Positions 9,001 through 12,000 of a DNA stretch of 50,396 bases are shown here, in pieces. How positions within the stretch are numbered: position 1 is the stretch's first letter; each line of letters starts with the position of its first letter. This DNA is from a plasmid. The stretch is from the sequence record CP155420.1. One strand, 5' to 3'. A program made the position numbers.

Positions 9001-12000
9001 TTAATGCTTTTGCAAATTCTGCTCTTAAATTTGCTAAATCTGCTTTTTTTGGATTAATTCTTTTACCATTTTTATCCGCAACTTTCAAGCAAACATGGCA
9101 ATGCGGATTATCAGTATCATTATGAAAAGCAACTACAAAAAAATTATTTGGATACATTCTTTTTAAAGTAGTAATTACAGCTTGTTGTAATTTTTCTTTT
9201 GGTGTTGTAGAATGTTCTTTCATAGAAAAAACCATATTAATAGTATGTCTTTTTTCTTTAGCACCTTCCTTATATAATGGAATAGGAGATCCTTCATTTT
9301 TGAAAATTCTTTTAACTTCTAAAATCTCATCTTCTCCAGCATATCTATCAAAATCGTTTGTAATTAATTCTACATTTCCATCACGAGAAATATAATCAAG
9401 ATGTTTTGAAAGTGCTTGAGAATTTTTAGAACCTGAAGTAATTTTTACAACGACTTCTGTATTTTTTCTAAACATATTTTTACTAACAAGCTTACCTGTT
9501 TTTATATCTTTGGCGTATTTATCTCTATTTTTATTGATGTAATTTAGTGGTAGCTTTGAAGCATTTTCTATTTTAGTAAAAACTTTTTTAGCAATTATTT
9601 CATCATCAAATATTCTTATACTACGCGACATTAAATTCTTTCATTATTTTTTTCTATTATAGCCCCAAGCTGATCGGATAATATATCAATTTTATCTCTA
9701 ATATTATCCATAGTTTTATTTAAATTATTTTCATTTATTTTGACAGAATTTCCACTTCTAAGAATCTTCAATAATTGATATATATTTTTACCTATTGCAT
9801 TGATTTCTGTTCTTGTTTTTATAAACTTATCTATTTCTATATTAGTAAAAAGTTTTTCATTTTTTATGGAGTTTAATAGCAAAAATTTTGCTTGTTTTGT
9901 AATACTTGAAAATCCTGTATTTTTAGAGATTTCTTTTAAAATATTTACTTCATTTTCTGTAAGTTTTAGTTTGATTATTTTATTTTCATCACTTGTATAA
10001 AATTTATTTTTAGATATCTCATTATTGATTTTATTCTTCTCATCTGCATCACAAGAATTAAACTTTTTTAATAAAATAGATATTATTTTACTATATGATG
10101 CATTTGTTTCTGATTTTATATATTCTAAAATTATTTTATCATCTTTGCTAACTTTTATGACGCAATTATTGTTTTTATTCATTTGCACTTCCTTAATGAG
10201 CCTCGCAGAGTTTTTGCCTTTTATTTTTTAAAAAGGTAACTTTTTAGGAAATAAAAGGCTATCCTGCAATTATTAAATTATTTCGATTAATCGCTATTCT
10301 ACATTATTAAGCTTTATAAAATATTAAGACTACTTTGTAATAATACATTTACATAAATATTATAAAGGAGATGTTATGTTTAAAGAAAGCAAATTGATAG
10401 AAGAATTAAAGCGTGAGTATGATGAAAAATTAAAAAAATTACGCCAAAAAGAAAAAGAAAATAAAGAGCGTATATATAAAAAATTTTCATCAGCACTATT
10501 TAAAGATTTTGAAATAAATGAAGATTTTAAAAATGAATTTAATTTATTGGTAGAAAAGTTTGATTGTAAAAACACTAAAAATATCTTAGATAAAATAAAT
10601 AACTTATATGATTTTAATCATAGAAACGATAAAATAGATACTGCAAAAAAACAATAAAACAAAAATTTATCATAGGAGAATAAAAATGGAAAAAGATTAC
10701 AAAATAAAAGTAACAGATGTAAGTGAACTTAATGAGCAATATAAAGAAGCTATACAAGAAGGAACTTATGAAGGTGAAGATGTAAATAAATTTTTTAATA
10801 CAATAAAAACTTTTGATGTTGCAGAAAGCTTACTAAAAAAAGATTTTTCAAATCAATATATTAAATTTGATATCATTACTGATAAAGAAAAAATACCATT
10901 AAATATAAGACTTGGAGATAAAAATTTTCAAAAAGGTATTGAACATTTAATTAATATTGGTAGTTCCAAATTAATTAAAGAAAATATAAACCCTGAAATA
11001 AAAAAAGATCTTAATAATCGACTTGGAATTTATAAACCAAAAATATATGATGAAATGTTAGATGGAACTTTTAAAGCAATAAAAAATTTATCAGAAGTAG
11101 CCAATAAAGATGTTGGTGTAATGATATTAGAATTTGCAAATTCTTATTCTGAAACTAGAGAAAAATTTGAAAAAAAGCAAATTAATAAAAGTTCATTTTT
11201 TAAAGAAAAAATGAATGAATTTTCAAAAAAAAACTAAATAAAATTTTACCAGATAGAGAAATTAGCAACGAAAAAACATATTCTCGATCAAGGTAAAAAA
11301 TGAATAATACAATAAATTTTAATAAACTATTTTCTCAAATAAGATTATCTTCTTACGATAATAATATTGTCAAGCACTATGATAATCTTAAACTTGTAGG
11401 AAAAATCACTCCAAAAATTGCTACATTAGAAATTATTCTTAGAAATAAACTTGATAATAAATTATCAGAACAAGATAGTAATTGGATAAAAAATTCTAAC
11501 GATGAAAATATTAAAAAAGCCAAAGATGAAATTGAAAAGAGAGAAAAAAATAGAATTTTATCTCACCATCAATATCTTTCTCGTATAAGCTTAGGAACGA
11601 TTATTTATCTTATTAAAGAAAATAGAATGCAAGATTCTATAATGAATTTAAAAAATATCAATTTTAGAAATTACAATCAATATAATAGAAATTTCTTTTT
11701 AAAAAATGGTAAAAAAAGAAACTTTGGAAATATATATAAAGTGGATATAGTTCTTAGCTTATTACAAAATCTAAGAAATAGAAGTTATCATTGGGAAAAT
11801 ATTTTAAAAACTACAGAAAAAAATGGCAAACATTATCCAAGATTAACAACAAAGATTGAAAATGTCTATATAGGCATCAATCCACAAAAGATAGAACTAT
11901 TTTTAGATGATTTAATTAAAACATTTGATGAAAGAATTTTGAAATATTGCCAAGATTAGAAAGGTGGGACACAAGGAGTCCCTCGAATTTCATTTGGAAT

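What the first reader, a model, noticed from the sequence alone, without database searches (positions are those of the whole stretch)
10216..10270. Textbook oriT signature: 11-bp inverted repeat immediately followed by the TATCCTG|C nick core
The relaxase has the MOBP three-His motif. The RP4/R64-type nic consensus YATCCTG|Y appears once, 1-8 nt 3' of a perfect 11-bp inverted repeat in the mob promoter region. This predicts nicking between 10266 and 10267 on the written strand.
Basis: partly seen in the sequence, partly recalled or inferred. Interest (0 to 1): 0.55.

Follow-up and report, generated by a model that had tools for sequence, protein, structure and literature searches.

The report
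Transfer origin of Campylobacter pTet plasmid
This is very probably the site where a common Campylobacter tetracycline-resistance plasmid is cut to start its transfer between cells; it is an ordinary, well-conserved example of a known kind of site, not yet confirmed by experiment in any paper I could read.

Summary
GCCTTTTATTT (10216-10226) and AAATAAAAGGC (10249-10259) are a perfect inverted repeat. It extends to 20-nt arms (18/20 complementary, 4-nt loop). Its last base touches TATCCTGC (10260-10267).

One claim is wrong. YATCCTGY occurs four times in the window, about the number expected by chance. Only the 10260 copy has an adjoining repeat and lies next to the relaxase operon.

The window is a C. 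jejuni pTet-family conjugative plasmid. In 12 diverged lineages (Campylobacter, Helicobacter, Aliarcobacter, IncX3, IncX4) a 42-53-nt hairpin ends exactly at T(A/T)TCCTG. It always sits upstream of the accessory and relaxase genes, on the strand opposite to them. The arm sequences differ between lineages but stay complementary. The core is invariant except A-to-T at its second base in the Aliarcobacter lineage. The layout matches the IncP (RP4-type) oriT.

In pTet of strain 81-176, a 7-nt tandem duplication starts exactly at the predicted nick, as an aberrant termination would leave.

By protein similarity the relaxase and accessory genes are nearest the IncX TaxC/TaxA type, not RP4 or R64.

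Verdict: a new, computationally well-supported member of the MOBP oriT class. Nicking and mobilisation are untested. A 12-nt box (AGCCTCGCAGAG) shared with IncP oriTs is unexplained.

The parts
10260..10267 (+). Nick core TATCCTG|C; predicted cleavage between G10266 and C10267 on the + strand
   Evidence: Read directly. TATCCTG is invariant in 11 of 12 lineages (TTTCCTG in the Aliarcobacter MAG), and the next base is C or T. It matches the MOBP consensus (C/T)ATCCTG(C/T) (PMC3772185). A 7-nt duplication in pTet 81-176 starts at C10267.
10216..10235 (+). Left arm of the inverted repeat (outer 11 nt perfect)
   Evidence: I7; fold; covariation.
10236..10239 (+). Loop GTAA of the hairpin
10240..10259 (+). 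Right arm of the inverted repeat; its last base C10259 abuts the core, and its pair with G10216 is invariant G:C in all lineages
10198..10210 (+). Conserved GC-rich box GAGCCTCGCAGAG between the accessory-gene start and the repeat; function unknown
   Evidence: Unique in the window. The exact 12-mer occurs in 18 of the 29 loci held when searched, including IncP-1alpha. It is exact or differs at 1-2 positions in five other IncP-like oriTs.
9631..10182 (-). Relaxosome accessory gene (183 aa from ATG 10182, RBS AAGGA 10191-10195); a distant DDP1/TaxA relative and the presumed repeat-binding protein
   Evidence: NCBIfam DDP1 E = 2.7e-8, 34 bits, below the 150-bit cut-off. BLASTP to IncX3 ddp1 E = 3e-4. 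Same position in all relatives.
8243..9631 (-). MOBP-type relaxase (462 aa); its start overlaps the accessory-gene stop
31189..33000 (+). VirD4/TraG-type coupling protein that would deliver the relaxase-DNA complex to the T4SS
   Evidence: Pfam T4SS-DNA_transf E = 4.3e-103.
10376..10657 (+). First ORF of the predicted leading region (the first DNA to enter the recipient)
   Evidence: geometry by analogy with traK in IncP-1alpha.

Best explanation
Positions 10198-10267 are the origin of transfer (oriT) of a Campylobacter pTet-family conjugative plasmid.

Proposed mechanism, inferred from the MOBP paradigm:
1. The 183-aa accessory protein, a DDP1/TaxA-like presumed DNA binder, recognises the lineage-specific inverted repeat.
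2. It positions the MobP1-family relaxase on the adjoining invariant core.
3. The relaxase's Tyr (candidate Y80), with the His-triad metal site (H170, H177, H179), cuts the + strand between G10266 and C10267 and stays bound to the 5' end at C10267.
4. The + strand is transferred 5' to 3' through the plasmid's VirB/VirD4 system. The ORFs from 10376 onward enter first. The box, the hairpin, the core and the mob genes enter last.
5. In the recipient, the relaxase recognises the hairpin plus core on the single strand and recloses the circle.

Shown here: the sequence architecture, its conservation, the covariation of the arms, the geometry, and the protein families. Inferred: binding, the exact nick position, the direction of transfer, and termination.
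For: - The repeat and core are at the stated coordinates. The hairpin is stable as single-stranded DNA.
- Of four YATCCTGY copies, only this one has a repeat.
- It lies in the intergenic gap upstream of the accessory and relaxase operon, on the opposite strand. This is the arrangement of traJ/traI - IR - nic - traK in IncP-1alpha.
- The relaxase matches PF03432 and NCBIfam MobP1, with an invariant Tyr and HxDx4HxH.
- A hairpin ending 0-1 nt before T(A/T)TCCTG is present in C. fetus, C. vulpis, C. concisus, H. rodentium, H. trogontum, H. bilis and other Helicobacter, Campylobacter MAGs, an Aliarcobacter MAG, IncX3 and IncX4.
- The arms covary. Positions 2-7 from the hairpin base show 2-4 Watson-Crick pair types, with 11-12 of 12 lineages paired. 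90% of cells are paired against 53% in shuffles (0/500). The covariation score is 0.84, against 0.17-0.31 when the partners are slid.
- The chance of a perfect arm of at least 7 nt abutting a given position in these loci is 0.7%.
- C. fetus plasmids retain DNA similarity to the window only across 10197-10283.
- pTet of strain 81-176 has a tandem duplication of CAATTAT whose left edge is exactly the predicted nick. It is present in 3 of 142 records, probably the three deposited sequences of this one plasmid (not checked), and would then be one event. Joining a strand that ended 7 nt past nic to the 5' end at C10267 would produce exactly this product.
- VirB3/4, VirB6, VirB10 and VirD4 are on the same replicon.
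- ATCCTG is the experimentally required core for RP4 TraI, VirD2 and H. pylori Tfs4 VirD2 (PMC3772185).
Against: - There is no experimental nick mapping or mobilisation test for pTet in any paper I could read. Batchelor et al. 2004 and the pVT745 nick-mapping paper are not held.
- The core alone is at chance frequency in the window.
- The pVT745-like plasmid pS23A has the core but no convincing repeat, so the repeat is not universal in the wider clade.
- The left-arm register used for the covariation count was chosen by repeat detection and is therefore fitted to the structure.
- In this window the virB3/virB4 region and tet(O) are split by frameshifts. This copy may not be self-transmissible, or the assembly carries indel errors.
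Confidence: 0.85

Rival explanations
1. The inverted repeat is mainly an operator or promoter element for autoregulation of the mob operon (and perhaps the divergent + strand operon). The real nick lies elsewhere on the plasmid.
For: The site is in a divergent intergenic region. In related systems accessory proteins autoregulate their operon (title and abstract of PMC4175270 on RA3 MobC, listed). A-T-rich -10-like strings overlap the left arm on the minus strand (my reading).
Against: An operator role does not explain an invariant TATCCTG fused to arms that vary. No other motif copy in the window has a repeat. The two roles are not exclusive: an oriT repeat could also serve as the operator of the mob operon.
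Confidence: 0.05
2. This is the oriT, but the relaxase cuts at another position, for example in the hairpin loop as in MOBV or rolling-circle systems, or one or two bases away from G|C.
For: The nick position is inferred from RP4 and VirD2. This relaxase shares only motif III with RP4 TraI. The repeat-to-nick distance would be 7 nt here, against 8 nt in IncP-1alpha.
Against: The loop sequence and length are not conserved between lineages (loops of 3-6 nt in the predicted folds, no shared sequence). The core is conserved, and the base after G stays a pyrimidine. The 81-176 duplication starts exactly at C10267. H. pylori Tfs4 VirD2, which lies outside the established MOB clades, still cuts at ATCCTG.
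Confidence: 0.07
3. A repeat and an 8-mer in A-T-rich intergenic DNA happen to lie side by side by chance.
For: The motif occurs at chance frequency. A-T-rich DNA is full of imperfect repeats (168 pairs in 800 nt).
Against: About 0.02 such combinations are expected per window (4 motifs x 0.4%). The architecture is kept, with compensatory changes, in 12 lineages.
Confidence: 0.01

Closest known systems
IncX (R6K-type) oriT with TaxA (DDP1) and TaxC relaxase
   Same: These are among the nearest relaxase relatives outside Campylobacterota (28-32% identity; only the pVT745-like relaxase is closer). RefSeq gives most of these IncX relaxases the same NCBIfam name, MobP1. The accessory protein is distantly DDP1-like. 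In IncX3 and IncX4 a 42-51-nt hairpin ends directly at TATCCTGCA upstream of ddp1, on the opposite strand.
   Different: The arm sequences are unrelated. IncX plasmids are reported to carry two oriTs inside long inverted repeats (PMC3402527), whereas the window has only one repeat-plus-core site. The accessory match is far below the family cut-off.
IncP-1 (RP4/RK2) oriT: TraJ-bound 19-bp inverted repeat, nic at ATCCTG|C
   Same: The order and strands are the same: accessory and relaxase genes leftward, then repeat, then C-TATCCTG|C, then the leading operon rightward. Both also have the 12-nt box AGCCTCGCAGAG between the accessory-gene start and the repeat.
   Different: The relaxase shares only motif III. 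No TraK-family match was seen among the ORFs to the right of the site. The repeat ends 1 nt before TATCCTG in IncP and 0 nt here. The box lies 89 nt from nic in IncP and about 55 nt here.
pVT745/pS23A (Aggregatibacter) MagA relaxosome and oriT
   Same: It has the closest non-Campylobacterota relaxase (36% identity). TATCCTGCA lies upstream of the accessory gene on the opposite strand. From my own memory, unverified, a nick site was mapped on pVT745 (Chen, Pappas and Galli 2010, cited).
   Different: There is no convincing repeat next to the core and no box. I could not read the paper.
Helicobacter pylori tfs4 oriT and Tfs4 VirD2
   Same: It is from the same bacterial class. An intergenic TATCCTGC is preceded by an inverted repeat upstream of the relaxase gene, and cleavage was shown to depend on ATCCTG (PMC3772185).
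   Different: It is a chromosomal island relaxase outside the established MOB clades, with a different accessory protein (VirC1).
Agrobacterium T-DNA borders and VirD2
   Same: They use the same ATCCTG core (PMC3772185).
   Different: From established knowledge, the borders are 25-bp direct repeats without an adjoining hairpin, and the relaxase clade is different.

Membership tests
MOBP-type oriT nick region | Core ATCCTG flanked by pyrimidines (YATCCTG|Y) | tested here: met
   TATCCTGC at 10260-10267. Consensus as given in PMC3772185.
MOBP-type oriT nick region | Inverted repeat immediately 5' of the core on the nicked strand (about 8 nt from repeat to nick) | tested here: met
   20-nt arms end at 10259, 7 nt before the predicted nick. 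P = 0.1-0.4% at random positions.
MOBP-type oriT nick region | Adjacent to a MOBP relaxase operon, with the nicked strand opposite to the relaxase coding strand | tested here: met
   Same layout as IncP-1alpha and as all relatives.
MOBP-type oriT nick region | Cognate relaxase with a motif I Tyr and a motif III HxDx..HxH | tested here: met
   Y80, H170, D172, H177 and H179 are invariant in alignment A1.
MOBP-type oriT nick region | Core conserved while the repeat varies but stays complementary among relatives | tested here: met
MOBP-type oriT nick region | Site- and strand-specific cleavage with covalent 5' attachment; confers mobilisation in cis | not testable with these tools
   This needs a mobilisation assay and nick mapping. 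The only indirect hint is the duplication starting at the predicted nick.
IncP-1 (MOBP11) oriT | TraI/MobA(P)-type relaxase with TraJ and TraK partners | tested here: not met
   BLASTP to IncP-1alpha TraI aligns only motif III, E = 0.005. NCBIfam assigns MobP1, not TraI. Pfam and NCBIfam gave no TraK-family match for the ORFs to the right of the site.
IncX (MOBP3) Tax relaxosome and oriT | Relaxase in the same family model as the IncX relaxases | tested here: met
   MobP1 scores 397.6 bits against a cut-off of 200. IncX1, IncX3 and some IncX4 relaxases carry the same name in RefSeq. IncX is assigned to MOBP3 in PMC3394729. No phylogeny was run.
IncX (MOBP3) Tax relaxosome and oriT | TaxA/DDP1 accessory protein | tested here: inconclusive
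   DDP1 scores 34 bits, E = 2.7e-8, below the 150-bit cut-off. BLASTP E = 3e-4 at 18% identity.
IncX (MOBP3) Tax relaxosome and oriT | Two oriT copies within long inverted repeats | tested here: not met
   The window has a single repeat-plus-core site. The other motif copies lack repeats, and the 'second place' in the BLAST hits is the repeat matching itself. The feature is described in PMC3402527.

The most novel reading that the evidence does not exclude
The 12-nt box AGCCTCGCAGAG (10199-10210) may be a third functional oriT element that has not been characterised. It is kept exactly in A-T-rich Campylobacter and Helicobacter plasmids whose relaxases are only about 40% identical. It is also kept in G-C-rich IncP-type oriTs. 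It always lies between the accessory-gene start and the repeat on the nicked strand. It could be a site for the relaxase or a host factor, or a leader element of the mob mRNA. If so, pTet-type and IncP-type oriTs share ancestry beyond the nick core.
Probability: 0.3. Interest if true: 0.4.

Novelty: new member of a known kind. Interest (0 to 1): 0.25.

Why it matters
pTet-family plasmids are the main carriers of tet(O) and other resistance genes in Campylobacter: 231 records in the plasmid collection match this region.

A defined oriT of about 70 nt would make three things possible:
- building vectors that are mobilised by native Campylobacter plasmids;
- predicting which small plasmids or chromosomal sites pTet can mobilise;
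- annotating oriT in Campylobacter and Helicobacter plasmids, where the records I fetched (CDS-only gene tables) list no feature over it.

Scientifically it is a routine extension of the MOBP paradigm. The covarying arms next to an invariant core illustrate how relaxosome specificity diverges. The box shared with IncP oriTs is a small open question.

Tried and rejected
- A second, IncX-like oriT copy: rejected. The 'two places per record' are the repeat matching itself on the other strand. The other three YATCCTGY copies have arms of only 4-6 nt.
- An intrinsic terminator: none found.
- A known RNA family: only microRNA-hairpin noise far below the gathering scores.
- A sigma-70 promoter for the mob operon: no minus-strand hit inside the gap. 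The E. coli consensus suits Campylobacter poorly, so this is uninformative.
- A MAFFT alignment of the whole hairpins (A3) misaligned the left arms. It was replaced by an arm-anchored alignment (A4).
- The PDB sequence search for the relaxase gave nothing meaningful.
- Literature: eight searches found no description of a pTet oriT. Batchelor et al. 2004 and Chen et al. 2010 are not held, so I cannot exclude that this site was already pointed out there.
- L025 (C. portucalensis) lacks the site, but its relaxase is a truncated chromosomal remnant.
- The Xylella plasmid L006 was not analysed further.

Full report
**What is in the sequence.**
- Reading 10198-10267 on the + strand gives: GAGCCTCGCAGAG - TTTTT - GCCTTTTATTTTTTAAAAAG - GTAA - CTTTTTAGGAAATAAAAGGC - TATCCTGC.
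It is the outer part of a repeat with 20-nt arms, 18/20 complementary, around a 4-nt loop (I7).
- The right arm ends at 10259 and the 8-mer TATCCTGC starts at 10260.
- As single-stranded DNA the segment folds at -16 kcal/mol, z = -4.3.

**Is it more than chance?**
- The motif alone is not.
- The combination is. The other three copies have perfect arms of 4-6 nt within 8 nt upstream.
- A perfect arm of at least 11 nt in that position occurs at 0.4% of random window positions, or 0.1% if it must abut. About 0.02 or fewer such pairs are therefore expected per window.

**Context.**
- The window is a C. jejuni pTet-family conjugative plasmid. Region 8200-11300 is 100% identical to AP025956.1 and matches 231 plasmid records (229 Campylobacter, 2 Helicobacter).
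- To the left, on the minus strand, lie a 462-aa relaxase (8243-9631) and a 183-aa accessory gene (ATG at 10182, RBS AAGGA). The accessory stop overlaps the relaxase start.
- The relaxase matches Pfam PF03432 and NCBIfam MobP1 over the full profile, 397.6 bits against a cut-off of 200.
- Y80, H170, D172, H177 and H179 are invariant in six lineages.
- The accessory protein is a distant relative of IncX DDP1/TaxA (E = 2.7e-8, below the cut-off; BLASTP E = 3e-4).
- To the right, on the + strand, are small ORFs and a DUF5710-Toprim primase-like gene.
- The same replicon carries VirB3/4, VirB6, VirB10, VirD4, a topoisomerase, SSB and tet(O).
- No second relaxase was found among the larger ORFs I scanned with Pfam or NCBIfam.

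**Comparative test.**
- C. fetus plasmids keep DNA similarity to the window only across 10197-10283, which is the box, the repeat and the core.
- I fetched diverged relatives from plasmids and from genomes (22 loci).
- Every intact relative with enough upstream DNA, except pS23A (below), shows the same arrangement. A 42-53-nt hairpin ends 0-1 nt before TATCCTG(C/T), 560-860 nt upstream of the relaxase start, on the strand opposite to it.
- These relatives are C. fetus, C. vulpis, C. concisus, H. rodentium, H. trogontum, H. bilis, two further Helicobacter, Campylobacter MAGs, IncX3 and IncX4.
- An Aliarcobacter MAG has the same hairpin with the variant core TTTCCTG|T.
- The outer arms differ between lineages: GCCTTTTATTT, GCCTTTTACT, GGCAAAG, GCCTATTA, GCTTTTTTGTTAT, GGCAATAAC, GGAAAAAATGTGC, GGGCAAACG and GACAATCATGG. 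They stay complementary.
- At positions 2-7 from the hairpin base there are 2-4 Watson-Crick pair types, with 11-12 of 12 lineages paired. The closing G:C next to the core never varies.
- On an arm-anchored alignment, 90% of cells pair against 53% in shuffles (0/500). Nine of 10 pairs have changes on both sides. The covariation score is 0.84, against 0.17-0.31 when the partners are slid by 1-3 columns.
- The caveat is that I set the left-arm register by repeat detection. The independent control is that a perfect arm of at least 7 nt abuts only 0.7% of positions in these loci.
- There are two exceptions. The pVT745-like plasmid pS23A has TATCCTGCA in the right place but no convincing repeat. 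A truncated chromosomal relaxase remnant in C. portucalensis has no site.

**Geometry and mechanism.**
- In IncP-1alpha (pBS228, RP4-type) the order is traI/traJ leftward, then 19-nt arms, then C-TATCCTG|C, then traK/L/M rightward. The window is the same.
- By the established MOBP mechanism the relaxase stays on the 5' end created at the pyrimidine after the G, and that strand leaves 5' to 3'.
- So I infer that C10267 leads, the ORFs from 10376 onward enter first, and the mob genes, the box and the hairpin enter last. There the hairpin plus core can serve for recircularisation.
- ATCCTG is the experimentally required core for RP4 TraI, VirD2 and H. pylori Tfs4 VirD2 (PMC3772185).
- Lineage-specific arms next to an invariant core fit a division of labour. 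The accessory protein would read the arms and the relaxase would read the core. Neither binding was tested.

**A scar at the predicted nick.**
- Aligning the window with pTet of strain 81-176 shows a single indel in the intergenic region: TATCCTG-CAATTAT-CAATTAT-TAAATT against TATCCTG-CAATTAT-TAAATT.
- The duplicated unit cannot be shifted, because the flanking bases differ. Its left edge is exactly the predicted nick.
- Only 3 of 142 records carry it, probably the three deposited sequences of pTet from strain 81-176 (I did not check which records they are), and so one event.
- A strand whose 3' end was extended 7 nt past nic and then joined to the 5' end at C10267 gives precisely this product. 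This is circumstantial, but it bears on the exact position.

**Family placement.**
- 'RP4/R64-type' fits the nick core only. RP4-type TraI aligns with this relaxase only around motif III.
- The nearest relaxases outside Campylobacterota are pS23A (36%) and IncX1/X3/X4 (28-32%), and the accessory protein is DDP1-like.
- IncX relaxases are classed MOBP3 (PMC3394729). I did not run a phylogeny, so MOBP3-like is an inference.
- IncX plasmids are described as having two oriTs in long inverted repeats (PMC3402527). The window has one.

**Rivals.**
- Operator only, with the nick elsewhere: this does not explain the invariant core fused to variable arms, and an operator role would be compatible with oriT.
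- A nick in the loop: the loops are not conserved in length or sequence.
- Chance: excluded by the comparative data.
- Terminator or known RNA: none.

**Unexplained.**
- The box GAGCCTCGCAGAG (10198-10210) is unique in the window. The exact 12-mer AGCCTCGCAGAG is in 18 of the 29 loci held when searched.
- It is present, exactly or with 1-2 differences, in IncP-1alpha, IncP-1beta and TraJ/TraI plasmids of E. coli, Legionella, Shewanella and Eikenella. It always lies between the accessory-gene start and the repeat on the nicked strand.
- In 28%-GC Campylobacter DNA this G-C-rich 12-mer is very unlikely by chance (my estimate is about 1e-5 for this flank).
- It may be a leader element of the mob mRNA or a DNA site. 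I could not decide between these.

**Novelty and verdict.**
- No paper I could search describes the pTet oriT. The original pTet/pCC31 paper is not held, so prior mention cannot be excluded.
- The kind of site is textbook and the instance is well supported. I rate it a new member of a known kind, of low to moderate interest, with practical value for Campylobacter genetics and plasmid annotation.

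Noticed in passing
window 10198-10210 (+); L029 1421-1432; L001 3003-3014; L002 2937-2948: The 12-nt box AGCCTCGCAGAG lies between the accessory-gene start and the oriT repeat. It is exactly conserved in diverged Campylobacter and Helicobacter plasmids. It is exact or differs at 1-2 positions in IncP-type oriTs (IncP-1alpha and beta, and E. coli, Legionella, Shewanella and Eikenella plasmids). Its function is unknown.
   Followed up: partly
L035 (pTet of strain 81-176, NC_006135.1), aligned to window 10260-10280: A 7-nt tandem duplication CAATTAT starts exactly at the predicted nick. It is present in only 3 of 142 records, probably the three deposited sequences of this one plasmid (not checked). 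It is consistent with an aberrant termination of transfer 7 nt past nic.
   Followed up: partly
window 40222-42140 (+): tet(O) is 1919 nt here against 1920 nt in reference plasmids, and it is split into two overlapping ORFs (40222-41460 and 41391-42140). This is either a frameshift or an assembly indel.
   Followed up: partly
window 20693-23459 (+): The virB3/virB4 region is broken into three ORFs in three different frames (VirB3 20693-21364, VirB4 N-terminal part 21388-22752, P-loop part 22956-23459). This is either a pseudogene or indel errors. If real, this copy would not be self-transmissible.
   Followed up: no
window 14186-15358 (-): An ORF with a eukaryote-type Ser/Thr protein kinase domain (Pkinase E = 3.7e-30). 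It has weak similarity to kinases of anti-phage defence systems (MADS6, BREX PglW).
   Followed up: no
window 5437-6684 (+) and 6716-7309 (-): A Cj0814-family flagellar-dependent secreted protein homologue (231 bits) and a C39 peptidase-domain ORF sit on the plasmid just beyond the relaxase gene.
   Followed up: no
L017 2290-2350 (minus strand), Aliarcobacter MAG: Same box-hairpin-core architecture but with the variant core TTTCCTG|T and the box GAGCTTCGCAGAA. This is a natural variant of the second base of the consensus, just 5' of the ATCCTG hexamer.
   Followed up: partly
L003 2300-2360 (pS23A, pVT745-like): TATCCTGCA lies only about 45 nt from the accessory-gene start, with no convincing adjoining repeat and no box. 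In this record the relaxase is annotated as several fragments.
   Followed up: no
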